Shown here piece after piece: positions 1,111-52,663 of a DNA stretch of 64,000 nucleotides. The notes beneath the pieces are model-generated. The model saw nothing but the letters and a program-made list of their open reading frames with translations, was not told where the DNA came from and searched no databases. The number at the start of each line of letters is the position of its first letter. Position 1 is the first letter of the stretch. The DNA lies in the NCBI GenBank assembly GCA_000002435.2, contig CM018793.1, one strand, 5' to 3'. Source of the stretch: Giardia intestinalis (taxonomy: Eukaryota). Made by a program: the position numbers and the translations under genes.

Positions 1111-1153
1111 TTTGTAGGATAGATAACCAATAACTAACCTCATAGTATATAAA

Positions 1154-1942: not shown

Positions 1943-1996
1943 CCTTCGCGCAGTACTTCTGCTCCAACGAGGATTTTTTTTCTAAGACTCCCTGTT

Positions 1997-11146: not shown

Positions 11147-11193
11147 TCTAATTTTAAACGATCAAAATTTGAAAGTTTATATGGGCTAATATT

Positions 11194-14100
11194 TCAAGCA
11201 TTTTGTGCTTTTTGAAGTTCTGCAATAATGCAATCCTTTTCTGCAAGCTCTCTTTTGAGCATGGAGAGCTCCGCTTTGAGACTGACAGCTTCTGGACTTG
11301 TCAAGTATGAATCTTTTCCATCAAGGCTAAGCTCTGCCTCTCTCGCCTTTGCATAGAGATCATTTTTCAATCCAGACAAATGTTGCAAAGATGTATTGAT
11401 GCGAGCATCTGAAATAGATGCATCTAACGCGAAGTTAATATTATTTTCATGAAGGATATTCCTCAATCTAACAAGCTCACTATTTTTCTCTATGTTAGCC
11501 TCTCTAAGCTTAGTCAGTGCATGCTCAAGTTGACCGACTGCAGTTATCACGCGGGCCAATTCATCTTCTGTATAGTGAAGATCATCGGTAAGCTTTTGTA
11601 CCTCGTCGCGTAGGGCGAGGGTTTCCTCACCGGGATCACTGTTGTAGGTCCAGTCAAAGCGCTCGTTCAGCGCGTCCTTATATTCCAGTATCTTATTATC
11701 CTTTGCTTGAATGCGCTCTTCTAATATTGCAATCTCTTCTTTGAGGCGAGAAATTTCAGAGATCTTCCGTTCGACTTCAGCATTGCGAGAATTAAGCAGA
11801 AGGACAAGATTATCAACAGACTGCGATACTGTTTCATCATGAAGCTTGAGATCTTTATGGGCAAGGCTTTGAAGCCTGTCTATCTCATGTTTCAAAATGG
11901 CTAACTCTTCAGTTAATGCCGCAGAGTCAATCTTTGAGTCTAAAGACGAAAGTATTGCACTTGACTTAATAAGCCCATTCAAAAACTCCTTCCCTGTTTC
12001 AAAAGTATGGACAACAGTATTTGTTTGTGACGCGACAAGCGTCTGCTGGAGTTGGATGATCTCCTCTTGGTGCTGGCGAATCGCTTGTCGAAGATCTGGG
12101 ATGGTATCCTGCATCTCGCGGATCTGGGCCTTGGCGTCGTTCATGGCTCCGAGGTTTTCGGTCAGGGCAGAGACCCTGTCCTCAGCGGCGGCGAGCTGGG
12201 CGCGGGCGGTCTGCAGGGCGTCCTGGGCCTCCGCCAGCTGAGCCGCGAGGGCATCTCGCTCGGCCTCCAGATTCTTGTGCTCGGCCTCCAGAGCTGCGGC
12301 CTCGTCGAGGGCCTTATCGAGGGCCGCACGGGCCTCATCGCGCTCGGCCTCTGCAGCACGCACGTCGGCCTCAAGGCGGCGGATGGCCTCGTCGCCGCCC
12401 TGCGCCTGCTGTGCCTTGGCGCGGAACTTCTCGGCGGCATCGGCGAGGGCCTCTGTGCCTGCTGCTGCGTGTGCCTCGAGCTCGGCGATTTTGGCGCGGG
12501 CGTCGGCAAGCCTTTCTTCGGCGGCCTTGGCCTGAGCCTCCAGCTCTGCAGCGCGCTCTGCAAGCGCCTCTGCGTCGCGAGCACGCACGGCATCTTCGGC
12601 CGCCTGCTCGCGGAGGCGCGCCAGCTCCTCGGAGAGATCCTCGAGCTGGGCCGCCTTGAGCTGGGCGTCTTCCTGGTGGGCGGCGGCCTGCTCGCGCGCT
12701 TCACGGAGCGCCGCTGCGTTCTCGGCTGCGTCGCGGCGGAGGGCTGCAAGCTCCTGCTGAAGCTGCTGCGCGGCGTCGCCGTGGTCGGCAATCCCGTCGA
12801 TCGCCTCTGCAAGCGCCTTCTCGCGGGCCTCGAGCTTGTCTGTAAGGGCGGCGCTTTCGTCTTCGAGGCGACGGATCCTGTTCTGGGCGTCCTCGAGCGC
12901 GCCGTCTGTAGCGCTTCTTTTGAGGTCCATGGCAGTAAGCTGGCGCTCGCGGTCCCGGACCTCCTCTGCTCGCGCTTCGGCCTTGCGGCCCAGCGATTGA
13001 AGGGCACTCTCCAGCTCGTCGACGCGGTTGCGCAGCCGTGCCGTCTTGGCGGCGCTTTCTTCTGCTTGCTCTGCCCTTGCGGCTGCCTCGTCCTCCAGGG
13101 CTTGAATCCGCGTTCTGGCGGCCTCGACACTGGCCGTTGTTCGGGAAAGTTCGTCACTCAGCTGGCCGATCTCCTTGTCCTTTGCATCAAGGGTGGCATG
13201 GAGGTCATCTCGCTCGGCCTCGAGTTGAACGATGCGCTCTGCAGCGCCTTCATTGTCTTGCGCACGTAGTTGTTGAAGCTCGCGCTCGCGGTTGTCTGCC
13301 TCCTCGCGAAGTCTTTCTGCCTCATTCCGGAGCATGTCAAGCGCCACTGTCTTCTCATCGAGCTCGCCCTGCTTTTGCTCCAGCTCCTTCCTAAGAGTTC
13401 CAAGCTCCATTTCCTGCATCCCTGCATCTATCTGCTTGCTCTTGAGCTCTGACAAATAATCTTCGAGCATTTGGGTGCGCTCCTTCGAATCGGAAGCCTG
13501 CTGCTCGAGATGAGAAAGTGCATCAATCTTGTCGTGTGCTTCCTGGAGCTCGCGACGAAGCTCAGCGATTTCGTCTGCCTGACGCTGTGCTAAAGTGTCT
13601 TTATCTCTGGCTGCTTCTTCTAAATAGTGGACCTGGGCCTTGGCGTCGTTCATGGCTCCGAGGTTTTCGGTCAGGGCAGAGACCCTGTCCTCAGCGGCGG
13701 CGAGCTGGGCGCGGGCGGTCTGCAGGGCGTCCTGGGCCTCCGCCAGCTGAGCCGCGAGGGCATCTCGCTCGGCCTCCAGATTCTTGTGCTCGGCCTCCAG
13801 AGCTGCGGCCTCGTCGAGGGCCTTATCGAGGGCCGCACGGGCCTCATCGCGCTCGGCCTCTGCAGCACGCACGTCGGCCTCAAGGCGGCGGATGGCCTCG
13901 TCGCCGCCCTGCGCCTGCTGTGCCTTGGCGCGGAACTTCTCGGCGGCATCGGCGAGGGCCTCTGTGCCTGCTGCTGCGTGTGCCTCGAGCTCGACGATTT
14001 TGGCGCGGGCGTCGGCAAGCCTTTCTTCGGCGGCCTTGGCCTGAGCCTCCAGCTCTGCAGCGCGCTCTGCAAGCGCCTCTGCGTCGCGAGCACGCACGGC

Positions 14101-26100: not shown

Positions 26101-29100
26101 TTGAAGCTCGCGCTCGCGGTTGTCTGCCTCCTCGCGAAGTCTTTCTGCCTCATTCCGGAGCATGTCAAGCGCCACTGTCTTCTCATCGAGCTCGCCCTGC
26201 TTTTGCTCCAGCTCCTTCCTAAGAGTTCCAAGCTCCATTTCCTGCATCCCTGCATCTATCTGCTTGCTCTTGAGCTCTGACAAATAATCTTCGAGCATTT
26301 GGGTGCGCTCCTTCGAATCGGAAGCCTGCTGCTCGAGATGAGAAAGTGCATCAATCTTGTCGTGTGCTTCCTGGAGCTCGCGACGAAGCTCAGCGATTTC
26401 GTCTGCCTGACGCTGTGCTAAAGTGTCTTTATCTCTGGCTGCTTCTTCTAAATAGTGGACCTGGGCCTTGGCGTCGTTCATGGCTCCGAGGTTTTCGGTC
26501 AGGGCAGAGACCCTGTCCTCAGCGGCGGCGAGCTGGGCGCGGGCGGTCTGCAGGGCGTCCTGGGCCTCCGCCAGCTGAGCCGCGAGGGCATCTCGCTCGG
26601 CCTCCAGATTCTTGTGCTCGGCCTCCAGAGCTGCGGCCTCGTCGAGGGCCTTATCGAGGGCCGCACGGGCCTCATCGCGCTCGGCCTCTGCAGCACGCAC
26701 GTCGGCCTCAAGGCGGCGGATGGCCTCGTCGCCGCCCTGCGCCTGCTGTGCCTTGGCGCGGAACTTCTCGGCGGCATCGGCGAGGGCCTCTGTGCCTGCT
26801 GCTGCGTGTGCCTCGAGCTCGGCGATTTTGGCGCGGGCGTCGGCAAGCCTTTCTTCGGCGGCCTTGGCCTGAGCCTCCAGCTCTGCAGCGCGCTCTGCAA
26901 GCGCCTCTGCGTCGCGAGCACGCACGGCATCTTCGGCCGCCTGCTCGCGGAGGCGCGCCAGCTCCTCGGAGAGATCCTCGAGCTGGGCCGCCTTGAGCTG
27001 GGCGTCTTCCTGGTGGGCGGCGGCCTGCTCGCGCGCTTCACGGAGCGCCGCTGCGTTCTCGGCTGCGTCGCGGCGGAGGGCTGCAAGCTCCTGCTGAAGC
27101 TGCTGCGCGGCGTCGCCGTGGTCGGCAATCCCGTCGATCGCCTCTGCAAGCGCCTTCTCGCGGGCCTCGAGCTTGTCTGTAAGGGCGGCGCTTTCGTCTT
27201 CGAGGCGACGGATCCTGTTCTGGGCGTCCTCGAGCGCGCCGTCTGTAGCGCTTCTTTTGAGGTCCATGGCAGTAAGCTGGCGCTCGCGGTCCCGGACCTC
27301 CTCTGCTCGCGCTTCGGCCTTGCGGCCCAGCGATTGAAGGGCACTCTCCAGCTCGTCGACGCGGTTGCGCAGCCGTGCCGTCTTGGCGGCGCTTTCTTCT
27401 GCTTGCTCTGCCCTTGCGGCTGCCTCGTCCTCCAGGGCTTGAATCCGCGTTCTGGCGGCCTCGACACTGGCCGTTGTTCGGGAAAGTTCGTCACTCAGCT
27501 GGCCGATCTCCTTGTCCTTTGCATCAAGGGTGGCATGGAGGTCATCTCGCTCGGCCTCGAGTTGAACGATGCGCTCTGCAGCGCCTTCATTGTCTTGCGC
27601 ACGTAGTTGTTGAAGCTCGCGCTCGCGGTTGTCTGCCTCCTCGCGAAGTCTTTCTGCCTCATTCCGGAGCATGTCAAGCGCCACTGTCTTCTCATCGAGC
27701 TCGCCCTGCTTTTGCTCCAGCTCCTTCCTAAGAGCGCTTGCTTCAATAGTATAAATTTGAGTATCTGACATCTGTGATTTAAGCTCACTAACAAAATCTT
27801 CCAACCGTTGAGTACGTTCTTTGGAATCGTTCGCTCTTTCCTCTGATGCCTTATTTAATTTTTTCAGGTCTGCTACCTCTGTCAAAAGTTCCTTTTTGTC
27901 GCGCTCGAGTTGAGCCACGCGATCAACAAGATCTTGAGATTCCTCTGCCTCTAGTTTCATAGTGGCAATTTCATCCATTTGTGCATTTAAGTTATCCAAT
28001 AGCTCCGCCATCTGAATTTCATTGGCTTGTGCCTCATGGGTTCGTCTGGCAAATTCCATCTGGGACGCGACAAGCGTCTGCTGGAGTTGGATGATCTCCT
28101 CTTGGTGCTGGCGAATCGCTTGTCGAAGATCTGGGATGGTATCCTGCATCTCGCGGATCTGGGCCTTGGCGTCGTTCATGGCTCCGAGGTTTTCGGTCAG
28201 GGCAGAGACCCTGTCCTCAGCGGCGGCGAGCTGGGCGCGGGCGGTCTGCAGGGCGTCCTGGGCCTCCGCCAGCTGAGCCGCGAGGGCATCTCGCTCGGCC
28301 TCCAGATTCTTGTGCTCGGCCTCCAGAGCTGCGGCCTCGTCGAGGGCCTTATCGAGGGCCGCACGGGCCTCATCGCGCTCGGCCTCTGCAGCACGCACGT
28401 CGGCCTCAAGGCGGCGGATGGCCTCGTCGCCGCCCTGCGCCTGCTGTGCCTTGGCGCGGAACTTCTCGGCGGCATCGGCGAGGGCCTCTGTGCCTGCTGC
28501 TGCGTGTGCCTCGAGCTCGGCGATTTTGGCGCGGGCGTCGGCAAGCCTTTCTTCGGCGGCCTTGGCCTGAGCCTCCAGCTCTGCAGCGCGCTCTGCAAGC
28601 GCCTCTGCGTCGCGAGCACGCACGGCATCTTCGGCCGCCTGCTCGCGGAGGCGCGCCAGCTCCTCGGAGAGATCCTCGAGCTGGGCCGCCTTGAGCTGGG
28701 CGTCTTCCTGGTGGGCGGCGGCCTGCTCGCGCGCTTCACGGAGCGCCGCTGCGTTCTCGGCTGCGTCGCGGCGGAGGGCTGCAAGCTCCTGCTGAAGCTG
28801 CTGCGCGGCGTCGCCGTGGTCGGCAATCCCGTCGATCGCCTCTGCAAGCGCCTTCTCGCGGGCCTCGAGCTTGTCTGTAAGGGCGGCGCTTTCGTCTTCG
28901 AGGCGACGGATCCTGTTCTGGGCGTCCTCGAGCGCGCCGTCTGTAGCGCTTCTTTTGAGGTCCATGGCAGTAAGCTGGCGCTCGCGGTCCCGGACCTCCT
29001 CTGCTCGCGCTTCGGCCTTGCGGCCCAGCGATTGAAGGGCACTCTCCAGCTCGTCGACGCGGTTGCGCAGCCGTGCCGTCTTGGCGGCGCTTTCTTCTGC

Positions 29101-32100
29101 TTGCTCTGCCCTTGCGGCTGCCTCGTCCTCCAGGGCTTGAATCCGCGTTCTGGCGGCCTCGACACTGGCCGTTGTTCGGGAAAGTTCGTCACTCAGCTGG
29201 CCGATCTCCTTGTCCTTTGCATCAAGGGTGGCATGGAGGTCATCTCGCTCGGCCTCGAGTTGAACGATGCGCTCTGCAGCGCCTTCATTGTCTTGCGCAC
29301 GTAGTTGTTGAAGCTCGCGCTCGCGGTTGTCTGCCTCCTCGCGAAGTCTTTCTGCCTCATTCCGGAGCATGTCAAGCGCCACTGTCTTCTCATCGAGCTC
29401 GCCCTGCTTTTGCTCCAGCTCCTTCCTAAGAGCGCTTGCTTCAATAGTATAAATTTGAGTATCTGACATCTGTGATTTAAGCTCACTAACAAAATCTTCC
29501 AACCGTTGAGTACGTTCTTTGGAATCGTTCGCTCTTTCCTCTGATGCCTTATTTAATTTTTTCAGGTCTGCTACCTCTGTCAAAAGTTCCTTTTTGTCGC
29601 GCTCGAGTTGAGCCACGCGATCAACAAGATCTTGAGATTCCTCTGCCTCTAGTTTCATAGTGGCAATTTCATCCATTTGTGCATTTAAGTTATCCAATAG
29701 CTCCGCCATCTGAATTTCATTGGCTTGTGCCTCATGGGTTCGTCTGGCAAATTCCATCTGGGACGCGACAAGCGTCTGCTGGAGTTGGATGATCTCCTCT
29801 TGGTGCTGGCGAATCGCTTGTCGAAGATCTGGGATGGTATCCTGCATCTCGCGGATCTGGGCCTTGGCGTCGTTCATGGCTCCGAGGTTTTCGGTCAGGG
29901 CAGAGACCCTGTCCTCAGCGGCGGCGAGCTGGGCGCGGGCGGTCTGCAGGGCGTCCTGGGCCTCCGCCAGCTGAGCCGCGAGGGCATCTCGCTCGGCCTC
30001 CAGATTCTTGTGCTCGGCCTCCAGAGCTGCGGCCTCGTCGAGGGCCTTATCGAGGGCCGCACGGGCCTCATCGCGCTCGGCCTCTGCAGCACGCACGTCG
30101 GCCTCAAGGCGGCGGATGGCCTCGTCGCCGCCCTGCGCCTGCTGTGCCTTGGCGCGGAACTTCTCGGCGGCATCGGCGAGGGCCTCTGTGCCTGCTGCTG
30201 CGTGTGCCTCGAGCTCGGCGATTTTGGCGCGGGCGTCGGCAAGCCTTTCTTCGGCGGCCTTGGCCTGAGCCTCCAGCTCTGCAGCGCGCTCTGCAAGCGC
30301 CTCTGCGTCGCGAGCACGCACGGCATCTTCGGCCGCCTGCTCGCGGAGGCGCGCCAGCTCCTCGGAGAGATCCTCGAGCTGGGCCGCCTTGAGCTGGGCG
30401 TCTTCCTGGTGGGCGGCGGCCTGCTCGCGCGCTTCACGGAGCGCCGCTGCGTTCTCGGCTGCGTCGCGGCGGAGGGCTGCAAGCTCCTGCTGAAGCTGCT
30501 GCGCGGCGTCGCCGTGGTCGGCAATCCCGTCGATCGCCTCTGCAAGCGCCTTCTCGCGGGCCTCGAGCTTGTCTGTAAGGGCGGCGCTTTCGTCTTCGAG
30601 GCGACGGATCCTGTTCTGGGCGTCCTCGAGCGCGCCGTCTGTAGCGCTTCTTTTGAGGTCCATGGCAGTAAGCTGGCGCTCGCGGTCCCGGACCTCCTCT
30701 GCTCGCGCTTCGGCCTTGCGGCCCAGCGATTGAAGGGCACTCTCCAGCTCGTCGACGCGGTTGCGCAGCCGTGCCGTCTTGGCGGCGCTTTCTTCTGCTT
30801 GCTCTGCCCTTGCGGCTGCCTCGTCCTCCAGGGCTTGAATCCGCGTTCTGGCGGCCTCGACACTGGCCGTTGTTCGGGAAAGTTCGTCACTCAGCTGGCC
30901 GATCTCCTTGTCCTTTGCATCAAGGGTGGCATGGAGGTCATCTCGCTCGGCCTCGAGTTGAACGATGCGCTCTGCAGCGCCTTCATTGTCTTGCGCACGT
31001 AGTTGTTGAAGCTCGCGCTCGCGGTTGTCTGCCTCCTCGCGAAGTCTTTCTGCCTCATTCCGGAGCATGTCAAGCGCCACTGTCTTCTCATCGAGCTCGC
31101 CCTGCTTTTGCTCCAGCTCCTTCCTAAGAGTTCCAAGCTCCATTTCCTGCATCCCTGCATCTATCTGCTTGCTCTTGAGCTCTGACAAATAATCTTCGAG
31201 CATTTGGGTGCGCTCCTTCGAATCGGAAGCCTGCTGCTCGAGATGAGAAAGTGCATCAATCTTGTCGTGTGCTTCCTGGAGCTCGCGACGAAGCTCAGCG
31301 ATTTCGTCTGCCTGACGCTGTGCTAAAGTGTCTTTATCTCTGGCTGCTTCTTCTAAATAGTGGACCTGGGCCTTGGCGTCGTTCATGGCTCCGAGGTTTT
31401 CGGTCAGGGCAGAGACCCTGTCCTCAGCGGCGGCGAGCTGGGCGCGGGCGGTCTGCAGGGCGTCCTGGGCCTCCGCCAGCTGAGCCGCGAGGGCATCTCG
31501 CTCGGCCTCCAGATTCTTGTGCTCGGCCTCCAGAGCTGCGGCCTCGTCGAGGGCCTTATCGAGGGCCGCACGGGCCTCATCGCGCTCGGCCTCTGCAGCA
31601 CGCACGTCGGCCTCAAGGCGGCGGATGGCCTCGTCGCCGCCCTGCGCCTGCTGTGCCTTGGCGCGGAACTTCTCGGCGGCATCGGCGAGGGCCTCTGTGC
31701 CTGCTGCTGCGTGTGCCTCGAGCTCGGCGATTTTGGCGCGGGCGTCGGCAAGCCTTTCTTCGGCGGCCTTGGCCTGAGCCTCCAGCTCTGCAGCGCGCTC
31801 TGCAAGCGCCTCTGCGTCGCGAGCACGCACGGCATCTTCGGCCGCCTGCTCGCGGAGGCGCGCCAGCTCCTCGGAGAGATCCTCGAGCTGGGCCGCCTTG
31901 AGCTGGGCGTCTTCCTGGTGGGCGGCGGCCTGCTCGCGCGCTTCACGGAGCGCCGCTGCGTTCTCGGCTGCGTCGCGGCGGAGGGCTGCAAGCTCCTGCT
32001 GAAGCTGCTGCGCGGCGTCGCCGTGGTCGGCAATCCCGTCGATCGCCTCTGCAAGCGCCTTCTCGCGGGCCTCGAGCTTGTCTGTAAGGGCGGCGCTTTC

Positions 32101-35100
32101 GTCCTCGAGATGGCGAATCAAATTGTTGGCATGCTCAAGCTCACGTTCCAACGTATTTGACTTGCCCACAAGAGCCACAATATCCTTGTTGAGCTTATCT
32201 CGCTCTGATAATAGAGATGATAACTGTGACTGGAGCCCTGAAATTACTTCAGGATCGTCTCGCTTATTGTCAGTCAACTGAACCCGAAGATCGTCAAGTT
32301 CGCGCCGCAACTGAAGCCTCTCATCGTCTGCGCTGTTCAGAAGGGCAGATAACTTGTCCCTAACATCTTCCAATTCACAGATCTTTTCTTGTAAACTTTC
32401 TCGATCCAGTTTGAGCATGGAGATCTGCTTGTTCAGTTCGATAGTAGCTTTATCTGCAAGATGAAGATTATCTATGATAGCATCTTTCTGAGATAATTCA
32501 TCTTTCAATTGTTTTAGTTCTGCTTCCTTTGTATTGAGAGAATCAAGTGCAAGATGAAGTTCATCCGTTAGTGCCCTAATGCGATCATAGAGCTCCGTTA
32601 TCTTGTCAGCATTGTCTGGCGACTCAAGAGATGCGTATTGCGAATCCACGACACTTGGTGCATGAAGAAGCGAATCCTGTGATCCACGTATTTTTTCTTC
32701 TTGCACTGCTTGTAAGTTGCTCAATTTGGACTTGAGTTGACTAATTTCATCCAAAAGCATTGCGACGGTTTGGGATTGATCGACTGGTGCTCGTAGAATC
32801 GCGGACATCTGCTCTACACGATCACTCAACTGCTCGAGATCTTTTTGGTGCCTGCGCATTAGGTTCTGATTCTCTTTGCGAGCCATCTCTGGGTCTGCAA
32901 GCGCGTCTCTGCAAGCATCAAGAGACGCTACTGTGTTAGCTAAGTACTGCTTCACTACTTGATATGTTGGTTCCTTCGTGGAGAGTTCTGTCAAGACCTC
33001 TATCTCTTTCTGTGCGTGTTCAAGCCGGGCTCGCAAGTCCAGCAGCTCATTGTTGGTCTTCCTTTTGGAGGCAGTATAAGTGGCATCGGCATCTGCCTTT
33101 TCCTTTCGAAGAACTCCTAATTTATCGGATAGATCTTTAACCTTTTGTTCGTTGGAAGAGTTCTCAACTGAAAGCTTATCGTAAGCGCGTCTAATATCAA
33201 CTAGCTCGGCCTCCTTATCTAGAAGCTTATTTTGGGAAGCTGCGCATGTACTCATTGCTGTCTCAAGTTGTCGCTCCAGAGGATGAATTCGTTCATCCTT
33301 CTGCTTAAGCAAGGCCTCTAGCGAATTCTGTTCCTTGATAAGCGCGTTATTCTGCTCTTTAACGTCTTGGAGAGACTTAAGCAAAGCTTCATTCTTTGCT
33401 ACTAAATCAGCAAATTGTGGCGGTATGGGTTGTGGCGCAGATGTCTTTTCGAGATCAAGGATGTGGCGGTCTTTTTCACGTAGCTCAGCAGTAAGATTGT
33501 CAATGACCAGCTTGAGATGTTGGAGCTCAAGAGCTGCAGATTTATTTGCTTCGTTAGGTGCCGCCTCCTTATAAGTCACCAATAAGTTGTTCATGTCATC
33601 TATTTGTTTGTTCTTCTCAGTAAGCTGTGCTTTTAGATGCTGAATTTCTCCAAGAAGTCCCGTTATTTCCGACTGCAACTGGTCGATGGTGGCAAGGTTG
33701 CTCTCCTGTATCTTAGAACCAGATTTATTTAAGCGTAAAATTTCATCTGCCAGTTCCTTGATCTTCTGGTTGCGTAGCTGAATGTCATCCTCCTTAGAAA
33801 ACAGTGCAGATTGCAGACGGTCGACCTCATTCTTCAACTCATTGAGCTGTGCCTCCATAACTTTTATTGTCTCGCCATCTGAATCACTATCAGATTTATC
33901 GTGGCTTCTACTCAATAATTGCTGCCGAAGATCGAAGATTTCATTGTCCTTGTTTTCTATGTTAGCTGACATCTTCTTCAACGTGTGTCGGAGTGCGACA
34001 TTTTCGTCCTTGAGTTTTGCAACTTCCTTTCCTGCCAAATCACGCTGAGTAGCGCTTGCTGAAAGAGCCGCCTTAGATTGCTCTGAAGACATGCTAGTAT
34101 CTACTAGCTCGGCTCTCAAACGGCGAATGGTTTGATTGGCGTTGTCTAGCTTCTGCTCTAGGCCTAATATGTCACTGCGCAAGGTGTCGATTTCACGGTC
34201 CTTGGCAGATCCGGTGTCCCTGAGTTTCGCCAAGAGAATGTTCTTCTCTACTGCATCATCCTTGAGCTGATGGATTAACTGAGCCATCCCATCAGCGTCT
34301 TTGTGGAGCCGGTTGATCTCTTGCTTAAATGCATTAACTGCCGCTCCATGCGGATGGCTTGTTGCGTCATTGATGCCTGCCCTGAGCTCACTGATCATTG
34401 CAGCCTTCTTGGTATTGTCCTGACGAGACTCATCTAACTGAGCCTGCAATCTAATAATCTCCTGATTCATCTGATTGACTTGATTTTGAAGTGCCTGATT
34501 CTGGACGATTATTATTGAAGACTCATCGTTCAAAGAGGCAATCTTGCGTTCCATCTCAGTTATCTTTCTCTCAAGATCGCCTTCTATTTGGGATCGGCTA
34601 AGCATAGACAGGTCCACATTGCGACCCGGGAAATCTTTCACTATATCTACAATAGAACTGGATAAACCAAAAGAGCTGACAGTTGGGTCATCCTTACTCA
34701 GCTTTGCGGGGTCGGGAATGAGATCTGATACTACTTCTGGTAGTAGGTGAGACTCTAGAGGGTAGAGGATGCGTGCAACATCCCAGTGCTTATTCTGAGC
34801 TGCTAAAATAAGGGCTGTCTTGGCATCCTTAGAGATGTGCTCCTTCTCTCTCAACACAAGATGCTGTGCTGCCTCAAATTGTCCTGCTTCTGCTGCATAC
34901 ATTAGCGCCGTCCTGCCCATTAGATCAGTGCGACATTTCTGATAAGGTAGAAGGTTTATCGTCGAGTCGACTGCGCCAGCAGCTGCAGCAAGCATCAACG
35001 GCGTGCGCCCGTCTGGTAGAACAAGATTCATTTCATAGGGAACAAGGCGTTTGCAGGCCTCCCCCTCATTGCAGACAGCAGCAAGCATAAGGGCAGTATA

Positions 35101-35301
35101 GCCATCGTTGTTAACTAGAGAGTGCTCAAAGCAGCCTAAAAGACGAACCATTTCAATGTCACGGTTCCGGACGGCGTGCATGAGTGCAGTTTCCCCTTGA
35201 CGGTCAACGGACTTCTGGTAGGTGGGAAGGTTATACCTAACTGCCTCTACGTCGCCATTGTTAACACACGCGAACCATGCCTCCTTCGAATCCAGAAACA
35301 T
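11194..35301 (-). CDS. Giant (8035 aa) ankyrin-repeat plus coiled-coil protein. About 6.7 kaa of it is tandem repeats of 503- and 566-aa units.
   Basis: ATG confirmed at 35299-35301 (cat on plus). The N-terminal ~180 aa carry ankyrin-repeat motifs (GETALMHAV, GYTALMLAA, GRTPLMLAAAAG, GRTALMYAAEAG, KTALILAAQN). The rest is continuous heptad-rich coiled coil. It is a single open frame through all the repeats. Confidence 0.75.
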   Translation of the reverse strand: MFLDSKEAWFACVNNGDVEAVRYNLPTYQKSVDRQGETALMHAVRNRDIEMVRLLGCFEHSLVNNDGYTALMLAAVCNEGEACKRLVPYEMNLVLPDGRTPLMLAAAAGAVDSTINLLPYQKCRTDLMGRTALMYAAEAGQFEAAQHLVLREKEHISKDAKTALILAAQNKHWDVARILYPLESHLLPEVVSDLIPDPAKLSKDDPTVSSFGLSSSIVDIVKDFPGRNVDLSMLSRSQIEGDLERKITEMERKIASLNDESSIIIVQNQALQNQVNQMNQEIIRLQAQLDESRQDNTKKAAMISELRAGINDATSHPHGAAVNAFKQEINRLHKDADGMAQLIHQLKDDAVEKNILLAKLRDTGSAKDREIDTLRSDILGLEQKLDNANQTIRRLRAELVDTSMSSEQSKAALSASATQRDLAGKEVAKLKDENVALRHTLKKMSANIENKDNEIFDLRQQLLSRSHDKSDSDSDGETIKVMEAQLNELKNEVDRLQSALFSKEDDIQLRNQKIKELADEILRLNKSGSKIQESNLATIDQLQSEITGLLGEIQHLKAQLTEKNKQIDDMNNLLVTYKEAAPNEANKSAALELQHLKLVIDNLTAELREKDRHILDLEKTSAPQPIPPQFADLVAKNEALLKSLQDVKEQNNALIKEQNSLEALLKQKDERIHPLERQLETAMSTCAASQNKLLDKEAELVDIRRAYDKLSVENSSNEQKVKDLSDKLGVLRKEKADADATYTASKRKTNNELLDLRARLEHAQKEIEVLTELSTKEPTYQVVKQYLANTVASLDACRDALADPEMARKENQNLMRRHQKDLEQLSDRVEQMSAILRAPVDQSQTVAMLLDEISQLKSKLSNLQAVQEEKIRGSQDSLLHAPSVVDSQYASLESPDNADKITELYDRIRALTDELHLALDSLNTKEAELKQLKDELSQKDAIIDNLHLADKATIELNKQISMLKLDRESLQEKICELEDVRDKLSALLNSADDERLQLRRELDDLRVQLTDNKRDDPEVISGLQSQLSSLLSERDKLNKDIVALVGKSNTLERELEHANNLIRHLEDESAALTDKLEAREKALAEAIDGIADHGDAAQQLQQELAALRRDAAENAAALREAREQAAAHQEDAQLKAAQLEDLSEELARLREQAAEDAVRARDAEALAERAAELEAQAKAAEERLADARAKIAELEAHAAAGTEALADAAEKFRAKAQQAQGGDEAIRRLEADVRAAEAERDEARAALDKALDEAAALEAEHKNLEAERDALAAQLAEAQDALQTARAQLAAAEDRVSALTENLGAMNDAKAQVHYLEEAARDKDTLAQRQADEIAELRRELQEAHDKIDALSHLEQQASDSKERTQMLEDYLSELKSKQIDAGMQEMELGTLRKELEQKQGELDEKTVALDMLRNEAERLREEADNRERELQQLRAQDNEGAAERIVQLEAERDDLHATLDAKDKEIGQLSDELSRTTASVEAARTRIQALEDEAAARAEQAEESAAKTARLRNRVDELESALQSLGRKAEARAEEVRDRERQLTAMDLKRSATDGALEDAQNRIRRLEDESAALTDKLEAREKALAEAIDGIADHGDAAQQLQQELAALRRDAAENAAALREAREQAAAHQEDAQLKAAQLEDLSEELARLREQAAEDAVRARDAEALAERAAELEAQAKAAEERLADARAKIAELEAHAAAGTEALADAAEKFRAKAQQAQGGDEAIRRLEADVRAAEAERDEARAALDKALDEAAALEAEHKNLEAERDALAAQLAEAQDALQTARAQLAAAEDRVSALTENLGAMNDAKAQIREMQDTIPDLRQAIRQHQEEIIQLQQTLVASQMEFARRTHEAQANEIQMAELLDNLNAQMDEIATMKLEAEESQDLVDRVAQLERDKKELLTEVADLKKLNKASEERANDSKERTQRLEDFVSELKSQMSDTQIYTIEASALRKELEQKQGELDEKTVALDMLRNEAERLREEADNRERELQQLRAQDNEGAAERIVQLEAERDDLHATLDAKDKEIGQLSDELSRTTASVEAARTRIQALEDEAAARAEQAEESAAKTARLRNRVDELESALQSLGRKAEARAEEVRDRERQLTAMDLKRSATDGALEDAQNRIRRLEDESAALTDKLEAREKALAEAIDGIADHGDAAQQLQQELAALRRDAAENAAALREAREQAAAHQEDAQLKAAQLEDLSEELARLREQAAEDAVRARDAEALAERAAELEAQAKAAEERLADARAKIAELEAHAAAGTEALADAAEKFRAKAQQAQGGDEAIRRLEADVRAAEAERDEARAALDKALDEAAALEAEHKNLEAERDALAAQLAEAQDALQTARAQLAAAEDRVSALTENLGAMNDAKAQIREMQDTIPDLRQAIRQHQEEIIQLQQTLVASQMEFARRTHEAQANEIQMAELLDNLNAQMDEIATMKLEAEESQDLVDRVAQLERDKKELLTEVADLKKLNKASEERANDSKERTQRLEDFVSELKSQMSDTQIYTIEASALRKELEQKQGELDEKTVALDMLRNEAERLREEADNRERELQQLRAQDNEGAAERIVQLEAERDDLHATLDAKDKEIGQLSDELSRTTASVEAARTRIQALEDEAAARAEQAEESAAKTARLRNRVDELESALQSLGRKAEARAEEVRDRERQLTAMDLKRSATDGALEDAQNRIRRLEDESAALTDKLEAREKALAEAIDGIADHGDAAQQLQQELAALRRDAAENAAALREAREQAAAHQEDAQLKAAQLEDLSEELARLREQAAEDAVRARDAEALAERAAELEAQAKAAEERLADARAKIAELEAHAAAGTEALADAAEKFRAKAQQAQGGDEAIRRLEADVRAAEAERDEARAALDKALDEAAALEAEHKNLEAERDALAAQLAEAQDALQTARAQLAAAEDRVSALTENLGAMNDAKAQVHYLEEAARDKDTLAQRQADEIAELRRELQEAHDKIDALSHLEQQASDSKERTQMLEDYLSELKSKQIDAGMQEMELGTLRKELEQKQGELDEKTVALDMLRNEAERLREEADNRERELQQLRAQDNEGAAERIVQLEAERDDLHATLDAKDKEIGQLSDELSRTTASVEAARTRIQALEDEAAARAEQAEESAAKTARLRNRVDELESALQSLGRKAEARAEEVRDRERQLTAMDLKRSATDGALEDAQNRIRRLEDESAALTDKLEAREKALAEAIDGIADHGDAAQQLQQELAALRRDAAENAAALREAREQAAAHQEDAQLKAAQLEDLSEELARLREQAAEDAVRARDAEALAERAAELEAQAKAAEERLADARAKIAELEAHAAAGTEALADAAEKFRAKAQQAQGGDEAIRRLEADVRAAEAERDEARAALDKALDEAAALEAEHKNLEAERDALAAQLAEAQDALQTARAQLAAAEDRVSALTENLGAMNDAKAQIREMQDTIPDLRQAIRQHQEEIIQLQQTLVASQMEFARRTHEAQANEIQMAELLDNLNAQMDEIATMKLEAEESQDLVDRVAQLERDKKELLTEVADLKKLNKASEERANDSKERTQRLEDFVSELKSQMSDTQIYTIEASALRKELEQKQGELDEKTVALDMLRNEAERLREEADNRERELQQLRAQDNEGAAERIVQLEAERDDLHATLDAKDKEIGQLSDELSRTTASVEAARTRIQALEDEAAARAEQAEESAAKTARLRNRVDELESALQSLGRKAEARAEEVRDRERQLTAMDLKRSATDGALEDAQNRIRRLEDESAALTDKLEAREKALAEAIDGIADHGDAAQQLQQELAALRRDAAENAAALREAREQAAAHQEDAQLKAAQLEDLSEELARLREQAAEDAVRARDAEALAERAAELEAQAKAAEERLADARAKIAELEAHAAAGTEALADAAEKFRAKAQQAQGGDEAIRRLEADVRAAEAERDEARAALDKALDEAAALEAEHKNLEAERDALAAQLAEAQDALQTARAQLAAAEDRVSALTENLGAMNDAKAQIREMQDTIPDLRQAIRQHQEEIIQLQQTLVASQMEFARRTHEAQANEIQMAELLDNLNAQMDEIATMKLEAEESQDLVDRVAQLERDKKELLTEVADLKKLNKASEERANDSKERTQRLEDFVSELKSQMSDTQIYTIEASALRKELEQKQGELDEKTVALDMLRNEAERLREEADNRERELQQLRAQDNEGAAERIVQLEAERDDLHATLDAKDKEIGQLSDELSRTTASVEAARTRIQALEDEAAARAEQAEESAAKTARLRNRVDELESALQSLGRKAEARAEEVRDRERQLTAMDLKRSATDGALEDAQNRIRRLEDESAALTDKLEAREKALAEAIDGIADHGDAAQQLQQELAALRRDAAENAAALREAREQAAAHQEDAQLKAAQLEDLSEELARLREQAAEDAVRARDAEALAERAAELEAQAKAAEERLADARAKIAELEAHAAAGTEALADAAEKFRAKAQQAQGGDEAIRRLEADVRAAEAERDEARAALDKALDEAAALEAEHKNLEAERDALAAQLAEAQDALQTARAQLAAAEDRVSALTENLGAMNDAKAQIREMQDTIPDLRQAIRQHQEEIIQLQQTLVASQMEFARRTHEAQANEIQMAELLDNLNAQMDEIATMKLEAEESQDLVDRVAQLERDKKELLTEVADLKKLNKASEERANDSKERTQRLEDFVSELKSQMSDTQIYTIEASALRKELEQKQGELDEKTVALDMLRNEAERLREEADNRERELQQLRAQDNEGAAERIVQLEAERDDLHATLDAKDKEIGQLSDELSRTTASVEAARTRIQALEDEAAARAEQAEESAAKTARLRNRVDELESALQSLGRKAEARAEEVRDRERQLTAMDLKRSATDGALEDAQNRIRRLEDESAALTDKLEAREKALAEAIDGIADHGDAAQQLQQELAALRRDAAENAAALREAREQAAAHQEDAQLKAAQLEDLSEELARLREQAAEDAVRARDAEALAERAAELEAQAKAAEERLADARAKIAELEAHAAAGTEALADAAEKFRAKAQQAQGGDEAIRRLEADVRAAEAERDEARAALDKALDEAAALEAEHKNLEAERDALAAQLAEAQDALQTARAQLAAAEDRVSALTENLGAMNDAKAQIREMQDTIPDLRQAIRQHQEEIIQLQQTLVASQMEFARRTHEAQANEIQMAELLDNLNAQMDEIATMKLEAEESQDLVDRVAQLERDKKELLTEVADLKKLNKASEERANDSKERTQRLEDFVSELKSQMSDTQIYTIEASALRKELEQKQGELDEKTVALDMLRNEAERLREEADNRERELQQLRAQDNEGAAERIVQLEAERDDLHATLDAKDKEIGQLSDELSRTTASVEAARTRIQALEDEAAARAEQAEESAAKTARLRNRVDELESALQSLGRKAEARAEEVRDRERQLTAMDLKRSATDGALEDAQNRIRRLEDESAALTDKLEAREKALAEAIDGIADHGDAAQQLQQELAALRRDAAENAAALREAREQAAAHQEDAQLKAAQLEDLSEELARLREQAAEDAVRARDAEALAERAAELEAQAKAAEERLADARAKIAELEAHAAAGTEALADAAEKFRAKAQQAQGGDEAIRRLEADVRAAEAERDEARAALDKALDEAAALEAEHKNLEAERDALAAQLAEAQDALQTARAQLAAAEDRVSALTENLGAMNDAKAQVHYLEEAARDKDTLAQRQADEIAELRRELQEAHDKIDALSHLEQQASDSKERTQMLEDYLSELKSKQIDAGMQEMELGTLRKELEQKQGELDEKTVALDMLRNEAERLREEADNRERELQQLRAQDNEGAAERIVQLEAERDDLHATLDAKDKEIGQLSDELSRTTASVEAARTRIQALEDEAAARAEQAEESAAKTARLRNRVDELESALQSLGRKAEARAEEVRDRERQLTAMDLKRSATDGALEDAQNRIRRLEDESAALTDKLEAREKALAEAIDGIADHGDAAQQLQQELAALRRDAAENAAALREAREQAAAHQEDAQLKAAQLEDLSEELARLREQAAEDAVRARDAEALAERAAELEAQAKAAEERLADARAKIAELEAHAAAGTEALADAAEKFRAKAQQAQGGDEAIRRLEADVRAAEAERDEARAALDKALDEAAALEAEHKNLEAERDALAAQLAEAQDALQTARAQLAAAEDRVSALTENLGAMNDAKAQVHYLEEAARDKDTLAQRQADEIAELRRELQEAHDKIDALSHLEQQASDSKERTQMLEDYLSELKSKQIDAGMQEMELGTLRKELEQKQGELDEKTVALDMLRNEAERLREEADNRERELQQLRAQDNEGAAERIVQLEAERDDLHATLDAKDKEIGQLSDELSRTTASVEAARTRIQALEDEAAARAEQAEESAAKTARLRNRVDELESALQSLGRKAEARAEEVRDRERQLTAMDLKRSATDGALEDAQNRIRRLEDESAALTDKLEAREKALAEAIDGIADHGDAAQQLQQELAALRRDAAENAAALREAREQAAAHQEDAQLKAAQLEDLSEELARLREQAAEDAVRARDAEALAERAAELEAQAKAAEERLADARAKIAELEAHAAAGTEALADAAEKFRAKAQQAQGGDEAIRRLEADVRAAEAERDEARAALDKALDEAAALEAEHKNLEAERDALAAQLAEAQDALQTARAQLAAAEDRVSALTENLGAMNDAKAQVHYLEEAARDKDTLAQRQADEIAELRRELQEAHDKIDALSHLEQQASDSKERTQMLEDYLSELKSKQIDAGMQEMELGTLRKELEQKQGELDEKTVALDMLRNEAERLREEADNRERELQQLRAQDNEGAAERIVQLEAERDDLHATLDAKDKEIGQLSDELSRTTASVEAARTRIQALEDEAAARAEQAEESAAKTARLRNRVDELESALQSLGRKAEARAEEVRDRERQLTAMDLKRSATDGALEDAQNRIRRLEDESAALTDKLEAREKALAEAIDGIADHGDAAQQLQQELAALRRDAAENAAALREAREQAAAHQEDAQLKAAQLEDLSEELARLREQAAEDAVRARDAEALAERAAELEAQAKAAEERLADARAKIVELEAHAAAGTEALADAAEKFRAKAQQAQGGDEAIRRLEADVRAAEAERDEARAALDKALDEAAALEAEHKNLEAERDALAAQLAEAQDALQTARAQLAAAEDRVSALTENLGAMNDAKAQVHYLEEAARDKDTLAQRQADEIAELRRELQEAHDKIDALSHLEQQASDSKERTQMLEDYLSELKSKQIDAGMQEMELGTLRKELEQKQGELDEKTVALDMLRNEAERLREEADNRERELQQLRAQDNEGAAERIVQLEAERDDLHATLDAKDKEIGQLSDELSRTTASVEAARTRIQALEDEAAARAEQAEESAAKTARLRNRVDELESALQSLGRKAEARAEEVRDRERQLTAMDLKRSATDGALEDAQNRIRRLEDESAALTDKLEAREKALAEAIDGIADHGDAAQQLQQELAALRRDAAENAAALREAREQAAAHQEDAQLKAAQLEDLSEELARLREQAAEDAVRARDAEALAERAAELEAQAKAAEERLADARAKIAELEAHAAAGTEALADAAEKFRAKAQQAQGGDEAIRRLEADVRAAEAERDEARAALDKALDEAAALEAEHKNLEAERDALAAQLAEAQDALQTARAQLAAAEDRVSALTENLGAMNDAKAQIREMQDTIPDLRQAIRQHQEEIIQLQQTLVASQTNTVVHTFETGKEFLNGLIKSSAILSSLDSKIDSAALTEELAILKHEIDRLQSLAHKDLKLHDETVSQSVDNLVLLLNSRNAEVERKISEISRLKEEIAILEERIQAKDNKILEYKDALNERFDWTYNSDPGEETLALRDEVQKLTDDLHYTEDELARVITAVGQLEHALTKLREANIEKNSELVRLRNILHENNINFALDASISDARINTSLQHLSGLKNDLYAKAREAELSLDGKDSYLTSPEAVSLKAELSMLKRELAEKDCIIAELQKAQNA
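13270..14778. repeat. Representative A-type period: a 357-bp AT-richer linker plus a 1152-bp GC-rich core.
   Basis: On the coding strand the A linker encodes VHYLEEAARDKDTLAQRQADEIAELRRELQEAHDKIDALSHLEQQASDSKERTQMLEDYLSELKSKQIDAGMQEMELGTLRKELEQ. Confidence 0.8.
19306..21003. repeat. Representative B-type period: a 546-bp linker plus a 1152-bp core.
   Basis: The B linker encodes IREMQDTIPDLRQAIRQHQEEIIQLQQTLVASQMEFARRTHEAQANEIQMAELLDNLNAQMDEIATMKLEAEESQDLVDRVAQLERDKKELLTEVADLKKLNKASEERANDSKERTQRLEDFVSELKSQMSDTQIYTIEASALRKELEQ. This is 63 aa longer than the A linker. Confidence 0.8.
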
Positions 35302-35340
35302 TTTAAATTCACTAAACTGAGCGCGGAGCTCTTTTTTTGA
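35302..35340 (-). promoter_or_regulatory. A 39-bp spacer that serves two genes. It holds a putative poly(A) signal, AGTGAAT, for the upstream kinase gene, and an AT-rich initiator for the giant gene.
   Basis: The coding-strand sequence runs from the kinase stop codon: tca aaaaaagagctccgcgctcagtttAGTGAATttaaa ATG. AGTGAAT fits the AGTRAAY consensus reported for Giardia poly(A) signals. Confidence 0.4.
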
Positions 35341-52595: not shown

Positions 52596-52663
52596 TTCCT
52601 GCAAAATATATTAAAATATAAAATAGGTGCGTTTTTAAACTCTGGCGCAAAGAATTCGCAGAC
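52596..52663. promoter_or_regulatory. A 68-bp AT-rich bidirectional promoter region.
   Basis: It lies between the adaptin ATG (minus) and the ATG of the 588-aa gene (plus). The sequence is ttgcaaaatatattaaaatataaaataggtgcgtttttaaac. Confidence 0.4.

What the first reader, a model, noticed from the sequence alone, without database searches (positions are those of the whole stretch)
11194..35301. A single 24.1-kb ORF encoding an 8035-aa ankyrin-repeat plus coiled-coil giant protein.
One uninterrupted minus-strand reading frame runs from a verified ATG at 35301 to a stop at 11194. The N-terminal ~180 aa are ankyrin repeats. About 84% of the length (aa ~1062-7757) is 13 tandem copies of a 503/566-aa Ala/Glu/Arg-rich coiled-coil module. 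A repetitive coiled coil of this size is unusual: if fully extended it would be micrometre-scale, which is a rough estimate. Combining ankyrin repeats with a coiled coil is typical of diplomonad cytoskeletal proteins. No equivalent giant is obvious from the sequence alone, so it is a candidate for a previously uncharacterised cytoskeletal or structural giant.
Basis: partly seen in the sequence, partly recalled or inferred. Interest (0 to 1): 0.85.

Follow-up and report, generated by a model that had tools for sequence, protein, structure and literature searches.

The report
Full-length Giardia head-stalk protein GHSP-138
The 24-kb reading frame is real, but it is the full-length form of an already named Giardia cytoskeletal gene (GHSP-138, GL50803_13475) whose repeated rod was collapsed to 2124 residues in older assemblies, so it is a corrected size for a known protein and not a new kind of protein.

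Summary
One minus-strand ORF (35301 to 11194, 8035 aa, about 890 kDa) has an ankyrin head (aa 1-190), an 874-aa unique stalk segment, a 6661-aa tandem array and a 310-aa tail. The array holds 12 full modules plus one partial, in the order A B B A B B B B A A A A. A is 503 aa and B is 566 aa. The window is Giardia intestinalis WB. The gene is GL50803_13475, annotated as "axoneme-associated protein GASP-180" and "head-stalk protein GHSP-138". It belongs to the Giardia ankyrin-head/coiled-coil-stalk family published in 2005. Its old 2124-aa model is this ORF with the array collapsed to 1.5 copies, and every short-read assembly I examined breaks at the array. Modules are almost identical at the DNA level, yet the gene is under strong purifying selection between assemblages (dN/dS 0.01-0.09). 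The syntenic G. muris ortholog (4580 aa) has 5.2 identical 537-aa modules that align end to end with module B, which indicates concerted evolution. The modules are predicted about 98% helical with a strong heptad signal. Published proteomics detect the protein in cytoskeletal preparations, but its localisation is undetermined. It is most likely a micrometre-long coiled-coil tether or strut. Copy number rests on one PacBio assembly.

The parts
11194..35301 (-). Complete ORF, 8035 codons plus TGA stop. Full-length GL50803_13475 (GHSP-138, annotated as a GASP-180 paralog).
   Evidence: for the ORF; for identity with the named gene.
35302..35340 (-). 39-nt intergenic spacer after the upstream NEK kinase stop codon. 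It contains AGTGAA (a Giardia-type poly(A) signal, presumably for the kinase) and the AT-rich AATTTAAAATG initiator context of the giant gene.
   Evidence: Sequence read. Assigning these motifs to Giardia signals rests on general knowledge of Giardia promoters and poly(A) signals and is inferred.
34732..35301 (-). Head, aa 1-190: an N-terminal cap plus five ~31-residue ankyrin repeats with a (G)xTALM motif.
   Evidence: Pfam Ank_2 E=9.7e-31. Aligns end to end with family members. dN/dS 0.009 against assemblage B.
32110..34731 (-). Linker and unique N-terminal stalk, aa 191-1064. Heptad coiled coil from about aa 240. Its first segment is conserved across the head-stalk family.
   Evidence: dN/dS 0.036.
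12127..32109 (-). Tandem array, aa 1065-7725 (19,983 nt): 12 full modules in the order A B B A B B B B A A A A plus a 247-aa partial. A is 1509 nt and B is 1698 nt. All six B units are 100% identical. The A units differ at only 2 nt.
28903..30600 (-). Example B module (unit 2, aa 1568-2133): 248 aa shared, 141-aa B cassette (window 29434-29856), 177 aa shared. This is the ancestral type and aligns end to end with the G. muris module.
   Evidence: AF2 predicts about 98% helix with breaks at residues 155-158 and 436-440.
25696..27204 (-). Example A module (unit 4, aa 2700-3202): the same shared parts with a 78-aa A cassette (window 26227-26460).
11197..12126 (-). C-terminal tail, aa 7726-8035. 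Its first 33 aa are identical to the start of the B cassette. The rest is unique coiled coil and is restricted to Giardia.
   Evidence: Only 4 hits in 1.84 billion representative proteins: three short fragments at 87-97% identity and the G. muris ortholog. dN/dS 0.063.

Best explanation
[quoted passage not shown] It belongs to the Giardia-specific GASP-180 family, which pairs an N-terminal five-repeat ankyrin head with a long coiled-coil stalk. Here the stalk has been lengthened by tandem amplification of a module of about 500-570 residues to 12.5 copies, giving an 890-kDa acidic protein. Proposed mechanism, inferred: two chains pair in a parallel heptad coiled coil to form a rod of about 1 um. 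The conserved ankyrin head docks the rod onto a cytoskeletal partner, by analogy with GASP-180 on the cytoplasmic axonemes. The identical modules, each 75-84 nm long if fully coiled, provide a periodic series of equivalent binding or self-association surfaces. The protein would therefore act as a long tether, strut or spacer in the detergent-resistant cytoskeleton. The array is kept homogeneous within a species by unequal recombination and gene conversion (concerted evolution), and its copy number differs between species. Shown here: the ORF, the anatomy, the gene identity, purifying selection, helicity and heptad periodicity, the orthologous array in G. muris, and published detection of the protein. 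Inferred: dimerisation, rod length, docking site and role.
For: Identity: neighbouring proteins match G. intestinalis WB records KAE8305061, KAE8305064, KAE8305065, KAE8305066 and KAE8305067 exactly, on a 4.02-Mb contig. The 2124-aa protein P0311 (ACJ49153.1 'head-stalk protein GHSP-138', XP_001709357.1 'GASP-180') equals this ORF's N-terminal 1064 aa, one A module, the partial module and the tail. Supplementary tables give GL50803_13475 = 2124 aa = GHSP-138. Family: Ank_2 E=1e-30. Head, linker and first stalk segment align end to end with GASP-180-type proteins of G. intestinalis and G. muris. Coiled coil: the 3.5-residue hydrophobic period has z=17-18 in the modules. The heptad score is about twice that of shuffles. 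AF2 predicts about 98% helix. There is at most 1 Pro per module. Functional constraint: dN/dS between assemblages A and B is 0.009 for the head, 0.036 for the N-stalk, 0.09 for the module and 0.06 for the tail. Conservation of the architecture: the syntenic G. muris gene (with the same NGP1 and NEK neighbours) is 4580 aa with 5.2 identical 537-aa modules that are 41% identical to module B along their whole length. Expression: 22-40 peptides per encystation time point (PMC3877021 supplement), 11 hits in the detergent-extracted ventral-disc preparation (PMC3243723 supplement), and abundant counts in actin co-IP tables. [quoted passage not shown] The array is real: every short-read assembly examined breaks or gaps exactly at it, and one GASP-180 gene shows excess read depth in isolate AS175 (PMC4570179).
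Against: Copy number and unit order come from a single PacBio RS II assembly (read N50 12.7 kb, 10% of reads longer than 20 kb), and the array is 20 kb. I could not inspect any reads. The near-perfect identity of the units could be partly due to consensus polishing with multi-mapping reads. The exact 8035-aa sequence is absent from the protein collection, so I could not confirm how the current reference annotates it. Localisation is 'nd'. No experiment links this paralog to axonemes, so the docking site is by analogy only. The monomer AF2 model cannot show dimerisation. pTM is 0.31, and the helix breaks could allow folding back, which would shorten the rod. Fold and sequence searches of the module against the PDB gave nothing significant.
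Confidence: 0.8

Rival explanations
1. The array is real, but its length or order in this window is an assembly product. The true locus would have a different number of modules, or would differ among the four genome copies of the binucleate tetraploid cell. The perfect unit identity would be a polishing artefact.
For: The array is 20 kb. [quoted passage not shown] Consensus was called with Quiver and then corrected with Illumina reads. Units show 0-2 nt differences.
Against: The A/B pattern breaks the array into homogeneous runs of at most 6.8 kb (BBBB) and 6.0 kb (AAAA). Reads of 9 kb or more could therefore tile it unambiguously at 200x coverage (inference). Two unit-specific SNPs survived polishing. 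The separately assembled G. muris genome shows the same kind of array with identical units. Optical maps agreed with the chromosomes.
Confidence: 0.2
2. The rod is not a solitary tether. It is a subunit that self-assembles laterally into a fibre or paracrystal, in the manner of a striated fibre or a myosin tail, and contributes bulk structure such as a dense rod, the median body, or disc- or crest-associated fibres.
For: Identical modules would allow staggered self-association. The protein is found in detergent-resistant disc and cytoskeleton preparations. The rod is acidic (pI 4.67) with a regular heptad pattern.
Against: No significant 28-residue or 9.33-residue charge periodicity of the kind that drives myosin-rod or intermediate-filament packing was found (charge spectra z<3 at those periods). 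Peptide counts are moderate compared with GASP-180 (22-40 against 162-215 peptides).
Confidence: 0.25
3. The repeats mainly serve as an immunodominant repetitive antigen, a decoy of the kind seen in many parasite repeat proteins, and length has no structural role.
For: A review lists head-stalk proteins among candidate antigens, and a study of the immunogenicity of GHSP-115 is cited there (PMC13315228). Perfect tandem repeats are typical of parasite repeat antigens (general knowledge).
Against: The protein has no obvious N-terminal hydrophobic leader (my reading of the first residues; no predictor was run). It is recovered from cytoskeletal fractions. Module sequence is under purifying selection between assemblages (dN/dS 0.09). 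The module is conserved along its whole length as far as the murine parasite G. muris. Decoy repeats are usually short and evolve fast.
Confidence: 0.05
4. The long frame is not expressed as one protein. The locus would be a decaying or internally initiated gene giving shorter products.
For: No full-length transcript or protein of this size has been demonstrated in the papers I could read. Published peptide counts were mapped to the 2124-aa model.
Against: There are no internal stops in 8035 codons, against 138-372 in each other frame. Purifying selection acts on every part. No AGTRAAY poly(A)-signal motif occurs on the sense strand across the 24.1 kb. The G. muris ortholog is intact at 4580 aa.
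Confidence: 0.05

Closest known systems
GHSP-138 / GL50803_13475 as previously modelled (2124 aa, 236 kDa; XP_001709357.1, ACJ49153.1)
   Same: The same gene. The head, N-terminal stalk, one A module, the partial module and the tail are identical in sequence.
   Different: The old model contains 1.5 modules in place of 12.5 and has no complete B module. The real product is 3.8 times longer (8035 aa, about 890 kDa). The assemblage A2 (DH) model is 1621 aa (0.5 module). The assemblage B (BAH15c1) model is 2119 aa with a 975-N gap.
GASP-180 / GHSP-180 (GL50803_137716) and GHSP-115 (GL50803_16745), Giardia head-stalk family (Elmendorf et al. 2005)
   Same: A five-repeat ankyrin head, a conserved linker and first stalk segment, and a long coiled-coil stalk. 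All are Giardia-restricted and abundant in cytoskeletal proteomes.
   Different: These paralogs are 1039-1650 aa, and the copies I retrieved show no obvious module array (I read them but did not scan them for repeats). They are 30-43% identical to the giant over the alignable regions. GASP-180 has a reported site, the proximal cytoplasmic part of the anterior axonemes. The giant has no reported site.
Giardia muris syntenic ortholog (P0332, 4580 aa, 512 kDa)
   Same: The same neighbours (NGP1, NEK). Head 73% identical. A tandem array of a module that aligns with module B along its whole length (41% identity). Units are identical within the species.
   Different: 5.2 modules of 537 aa, of one type only, and an 813-aa tail. 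There is no GC3 contrast between array and flanks (0.65 against 0.65).
Animal ankyrin-repeat plus coiled-coil scaffolds (UACA, RAI14/ankycorbin, ANKRD24, ANKRD26). From my own knowledge, not tested here.
   Same: A few N-terminal ankyrin repeats followed by a long coiled coil, with association to the cytoskeleton or rootlets.
   Different: No detectable sequence relationship beyond the ankyrin repeats. They are about 1000-1700 aa and lack near-identical 500-residue tandem modules.
Giant repetitive cytoskeletal proteins and modular rulers (trypanosome FAZ10 and MARPs, nebulin, the CCDC39/CCDC40 96-nm axonemal ruler). From my own knowledge.
   Same: Very large, built from tandem modules, bound along cytoskeletal polymers. 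In nebulin, module number scales with the length of the structure.
   Different: No homology was shown. The module pitch here would be about 75-84 nm, not 96 nm. Foldseek matches to filamentous axonemal proteins were not significant (E>=0.03, TM<=0.24).

Membership tests
Giardia head-stalk proteins (GHSP / GASP-180 family, Elmendorf et al. 2005) | N-terminal head of about five ankyrin repeats | tested here: met
   Pfam Ank_2 E=9.7e-31 with 3 stretches within aa 11-~180. Five (G)xTALM repeats plus a cap are visible in the alignment.
Giardia head-stalk proteins (GHSP / GASP-180 family, Elmendorf et al. 2005) | Long C-terminal alpha-helical coiled-coil stalk | tested here: met
   3.5-residue hydrophobic period with z=6 (N-stalk) and z=17-18 (modules); 3.6-residue period with z=13 in the tail. 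Heptad score 0.455 against 0.234 for shuffles. AF2 predicts about 98% helix for a module.
Giardia head-stalk proteins (GHSP / GASP-180 family, Elmendorf et al. 2005) | Sequence homology to named members through head, linker and first stalk segment | tested here: met
   E=1e-49 to 1e-64 to proteins of 1037-1650 aa, two of which carry source names: 'Axoneme-associated protein' (G. muris, P0036) and 'Chromosome segregation protein SMC/ coiled-coil protein' (assemblage B, P0015). The alignment is end to end. The sequence is identical to the deposited 'head-stalk protein GHSP-138' apart from module number.
Giardia head-stalk proteins (GHSP / GASP-180 family, Elmendorf et al. 2005) | Localisation to flagellar or axonemal cytoskeletal elements | not testable with these tools
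   The Hagen 2011 supplement lists the localisation of GL50803_13475 as 'nd'. Only presence in cytoskeletal and 'nucleus' (pellet) fractions is documented.
Canonical ankyrins (membrane-skeleton adaptors) | About 24 ankyrin repeats plus ZU5-UPA and death domains | tested here: not met
   Only 5-6 repeats. No ZU5, UPA or Death hits at E<=0.01 in the N-terminal 1064 aa, a module or the tail.
SMC proteins (some relatives are auto-annotated 'chromosome segregation protein SMC') | Walker A/B ABC ATPase head halves at both ends, and a hinge | tested here: not met
   No [AG]xxxxGK[ST] motif anywhere in the 8035 aa. No SMC_N or hinge Pfam hit.
Spectrin-repeat rods | Tandem three-helix bundles of about 106 residues (Pfam Spectrin) | tested here: not met
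   No Spectrin Pfam hit at E<=0.01. The predicted helices are 125-277 residues long.
CCDC39/CCDC40 axonemal 96-nm ruler | Homology to the CCDC39/40 families and a 96-nm span | tested here: inconclusive
   Only 'weak' precomputed CCDC39 hits on relatives. None appeared at E<=0.01 in my scan of this protein's pieces. Nominal module lengths of 75 and 84 nm do not equal 96 nm (calculated from 503 and 566 aa at 0.1485 nm per residue, the rise used). The fold matches were not significant.

The most novel reading that the evidence does not exclude
The module array is a tunable molecular ruler or tether. Each identical 75-84-nm module would be one step, and copy number (12.5 in G. intestinalis WB, 5.2 in G. 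muris) would set a micrometre-scale spacing in the Giardia cytoskeleton, for example between basal bodies or cytoplasmic axonemes and another structure. Two cassette types (A and B) would be retained because they bind different partners. Length would then evolve rapidly by unequal recombination while the sequence stays constrained.
Probability: 0.1. Interest if true: 0.6.

Novelty: already known. Interest (0 to 1): 0.3.

Why it matters
For Giardia cell biology, a protein treated for 15 years as a 236-kDa "GASP-180-like" entry in proteomic tables is really an ~890-kDa rod about 1 um long. I did not check whether it is the largest protein in the proteome. Spectral-count normalisation, tagging strategies and knock-down designs based on the 2124-aa model are therefore wrong for this gene. 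The locus is also a clean example of concerted evolution in a very large coding repeat: units are identical within a species, 41% identical between species, and under purifying selection. Synonymous-site GC is raised only in the homogenised stretches, a pattern that could be used to study gene conversion in an organism whose sexual cycle is debated. None of this defines a new class of system.

Tried and rejected
1. I first thought the organism was an unknown Giardia species, because the best named hits were only 30-43% identical. This was rejected: the neighbours match G. intestinalis WB exactly, and the orthologs were missed because the public models are fragments or contain gaps.

2. I guessed the gene ID was GL50803_16745. 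This was rejected: that gene is 1039 aa and is GHSP-115.

3. I tested P0015 (assemblage B) and P0036 (G. muris) as orthologs. Their neighbourhoods are not syntenic, so they are paralogs.

4. I looked for a degenerate module copy just upstream of the array. The alignment score of 99 was exceeded by one shuffle (maximum 106), so I make no such claim.

5. A PDB sequence search with a module gave 0 hits. Foldseek against the PDB gave only non-significant long-helix matches.

6. Myosin-rod-like charge periodicities at 28 and 9.33 residues were not significant.

7. TRF found nothing in the array, because its maximum period is 500.

8. Rfam and tRNA scans of the window were empty.

9. Literature searches for GHSP-138 and E2RU46 returned no papers. 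The Elmendorf 2005 and Bae 2009 papers are not held. The WB, G. muris, Be-2 and clinical-isolate genome papers do not mention this gene.
Full report
**Observation**

The window contains one uninterrupted minus-strand ORF, 35301 to 11194, of 8035 codons with an ATG start.
- Translation gives a single terminal stop. An in-frame stop lies 17 codons upstream of the ATG, and the window contains no N.
- Over the same 24.1 kb the other five frames carry 138-372 stops each, so the frame is not a chance product.
- GC content rises from 45-48% in the flanks to 60-66% across 12-32 kb.

**Anatomy**

Pfam places ankyrin repeats at the N-terminus (Ank_2, E=9.7e-31). By eye, and in the family alignment, there are a cap and five ~31-residue repeats within aa 1-190.

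A direct-repeat scan finds 13 copies with spacings of 1509 or 1698 nt. At the protein level these are modules of 503 aa (A) and 566 aa (B), in the order A B B A B B B B A A A A, followed by a 247-aa partial module.
- The array spans aa 1065-7725 (window 12127-32109, 19,983 nt), which is 82.9% of the protein.
- Each module has 248 shared residues, then a cassette, then 177 shared residues.
- The cassette is 78 aa in A and 141 aa in B, and the two are only 36% identical over the 80 columns that align.
- The first 33 residues of the B cassette recur at the start of the unique 310-aa tail.
- All six B units are identical over 1698 nt. The six A units differ at two positions only.

The protein has a calculated mass of 890 kDa and pI 4.67. 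It has 33 prolines in total and at most one per module.

**Coiled coil**

- Hydrophobic residues show a 3.5-residue periodicity with z=17-18 in the modules and z=6 in the N-terminal stalk. The tail shows a 3.6-residue periodicity with z=13.
- A heptad a/d score is twice that of shuffled sequence.
- AlphaFold2 on a single B module predicts about 98% helix (mean pLDDT 77.5), in three helices broken at Gly-containing sites (residues 155-158 and 436-440).
- At 0.1485 nm per residue, the array alone would be about 0.99 um and aa 240-8035 about 1.16 um. This is an upper bound, because the helix breaks could allow folding back.

**Identity**

Neighbouring ORFs match Giardia intestinalis WB proteins exactly: KAE8305061 (GL50803_0016731), KAE8305064 (Nog2/NGP1), KAE8305065, KAE8305066 and KAE8305067, on a 4.02-Mb contig. 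A 466-aa NEK kinase model (KAE8305063) falls in the same 90% cluster as the window's kinase ORF.

The 90% cluster holding the N-terminal fragment includes a 2124-aa protein named "head-stalk protein GHSP-138" (ACJ49153.1), also "Axoneme-associated protein GASP-180" (XP_001709357.1). Its sequence equals this ORF's N-terminal 1064 aa, one A module, the partial module and the tail.

Supplementary tables of two papers tie that 2124-aa, 236-kDa model to GL50803_13475 (PMC3877021; PMC3243723). My first guess, GL50803_16745, is a different paralog, GHSP-115 of 1039 aa.

The finding is therefore the uncollapsed form of a named gene from the PacBio WB reference (PMC7000408). Because the neighbours' accession numbers are consecutive, a KAE8305062 entry presumably covers it. 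That is an inference: the exact 8035-aa sequence is not in the protein collection.

**Is the array real?**

Every short-read assembly I could examine stops or gaps exactly at the array.
- A Logan contig ends about 90 nt into unit 1.
- Seven of the nine Logan contigs listed (five others end still closer to GL50803_16731), from different runs, end about 865-912 nt upstream of GL50803_16731, which is the array/tail junction.
- The assemblage B BAH15c1 model has a 975-N gap there.
- A gut-metagenome scaffold has a 100-N gap there.
- An earlier comparative study noted excess read depth on one GASP-180 gene in isolate AS175 (PMC4570179).

Copy number and order, however, rest on one PacBio RS II assembly: read N50 12.7 kb, 10% of reads longer than 20 kb, 200x coverage, HGAP3 and Quiver, checked against optical maps. 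The authors note that about 20 kb may be the resolution limit for duplications. The longest homogeneous runs are BBBB (6.8 kb) and AAAA (6.0 kb), so reads of 9 kb or more could tile the array unambiguously. That is my inference and was not checked against reads.

**Selection and evolution**

Against the assemblage B ortholog, dN/dS is 0.009 for the head (98% amino-acid identity with saturated synonymous sites), 0.036 for the N-terminal stalk, 0.09 for the shared module sequence and 0.06 for the tail.

The syntenic G. muris gene lies next to the NGP1 and NEK orthologs and is 4580 aa (512 kDa).
- It has five full modules plus a partial module of 537 aa. These are identical at the protein level, and the three units I could read as DNA have no differences.
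- Its module aligns with module B along its whole length at 41% identity, with few gaps.

B is therefore the ancestral module type, and the array evolves in concert: identical within a species, diverged between species. The tail has no relatives outside the genus in 1.84 billion representative proteins.

Third-position GC is a mosaic.
- Shared module parts: 0.78 and 0.66.
- Cassettes: 0.43 (B) and 0.51 (A).
- N-terminal region 0.46, tail 0.40, neighbouring genes 0.39-0.53.
- Assemblage B shows the same contrast, 0.80 against 0.31-0.41.

All these parts lie in one transcript, so expression-linked codon bias cannot explain the mosaic. GC-biased gene conversion in the homogenised tracts is the simplest reading (inferred).

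**Expression and location, from the literature**

- GL50803_13475 yielded 22-40 peptides at each encystation time point and was assigned to the "Nucleus" (pellet) fraction (PMC3877021 supplement).
- It gave 11 hits in the detergent-extracted ventral-disc preparation, with localisation "nd" (PMC3243723 supplement).
- It has substantial counts in actin co-IP tables (PMC8552679 supplement).
- The family's founding member, GASP-180, is reported on the intracellular part of the anterior flagella (PMC13315228).

No paper I could search discusses the 8035-aa size.

**Mechanism**

The best-supported reading is a parallel dimeric coiled-coil rod of micrometre length. Its highly constrained ankyrin head docks it to a cytoskeletal partner, and its identical modules offer a periodic series of equivalent surfaces. 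This would make it a tether, strut or spacer in the detergent-resistant cytoskeleton.

Dimerisation, extension, docking site and role are all inferred.

Rival readings:
- The rod is a subunit of a self-assembling fibre. I found no myosin-like charge periodicity.
- The repeats act as an antigenic decoy. This is unlikely given purifying selection and recovery from cytoskeletal fractions.
- The copy number in the assembly is wrong.
- The frame is not expressed as one product. This is unlikely, given no stops, no AGTRAAY motif on the sense strand and an intact G. muris ortholog.

**Comparison and novelty**

[quoted passage not shown] Canonical ankyrin, SMC and spectrin-repeat memberships were tested and failed. 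A link to the CCDC39/40 ruler is unsupported.

The gene, its family and its presence in proteomes are already known. What is not in the searchable literature is:
- the 3.8-fold larger true size;
- the A/B cassette organisation;
- the orthologous array in G. muris;
- the GC3 mosaic.

I rate this as already known, with modest interest (0.3). It is useful as a correction for people working on the Giardia cytoskeleton, and it is a clean case of concerted evolution in a giant coding repeat.

Noticed in passing
window 12127-32109 compared with 11197-12126, 32110-35301 and neighbouring genes: Third-position GC is a mosaic within one ORF. The homogenised shared module parts are 0.78 and 0.66. The A and B cassettes are 0.51 and 0.43. 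The unique N-terminal region is 0.46, the tail 0.40 and neighbouring genes 0.39-0.53. The same contrast exists in assemblage B (0.80 against 0.31-0.41) but not in G. muris (0.65 against 0.65). This fits GC-biased gene conversion confined to the tracts being homogenised.
   Followed up: partly
window 12052-31002, both strands: Twenty-four ORFs of 331-425 aa in other frames repeat with the module spacing. They are a by-product of low stop-codon density in the GC-rich array (10-36 stops per 1000 codons against 35-97 in the flanks) and are not evidence of overlapping genes.
   Followed up: yes
window 11194-35301, sense (minus) strand: No AGTRAAY motif (the Giardia poly(A) signal consensus) occurs anywhere in the 24.1-kb coding strand. 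No formal expectation was computed. This is compatible with a single long transcript.
   Followed up: partly
L001 (Logan SRR13990249 contig), gene at 10001-12790: The short-read contig carries a frameshift near codon 870 relative to the window (the protein P0001 diverges after ...AVQEEK). It also has an upstream extension of the reading frame. The cause is probably an assembly or sequencing error or strain variation.
   Followed up: no
window 1997-11146 (-): The adjacent 3049-aa ORF (GL50803_16731, hypothetical protein) has no Pfam match at E<=0.01. It is conserved in assemblage B (a 3091-aa gene call at the syntenic position in L005).
   Followed up: no
window 43535-49003 (+): An 1822-aa TPR protein with a TTC21 C-terminal ARM domain (PF25063, E=2.6e-30). 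It is probably the IFT139/TTC21 intraflagellar-transport homolog, although it is annotated only as a 'tetratricopeptide repeat-containing protein'.
   Followed up: no
window 59903-62206 (-) and 50577-52604 (-): A 767-aa protein with a Rubicon homology domain (PF13901, E=2e-13), and a 675-aa protein with an adaptin N-terminal domain (E=1.5e-38).
   Followed up: no
window 35302-35340: Only 39 nt separate the NEK kinase stop codon from the giant gene's ATG. This spacer contains AGTGAA followed by AATTTAAAATG, so the upstream gene's probable poly(A) signal and the downstream gene's AT-rich initiator sit side by side.
   Followed up: no
PMC10711314 Table 1 (genes outside the window): Two other GASP-180 genes (GL50803_0061565 and GL50803_00137716) appear to be duplicates on chromosomes 1 and 5 (the NC_051856.1 and NC_051860.1 records). 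Both have the same 42-nt rarely spliced non-canonical intron candidate and 66.6% exon GC, so high GC is shared by other stalks in the family.
   Followed up: no
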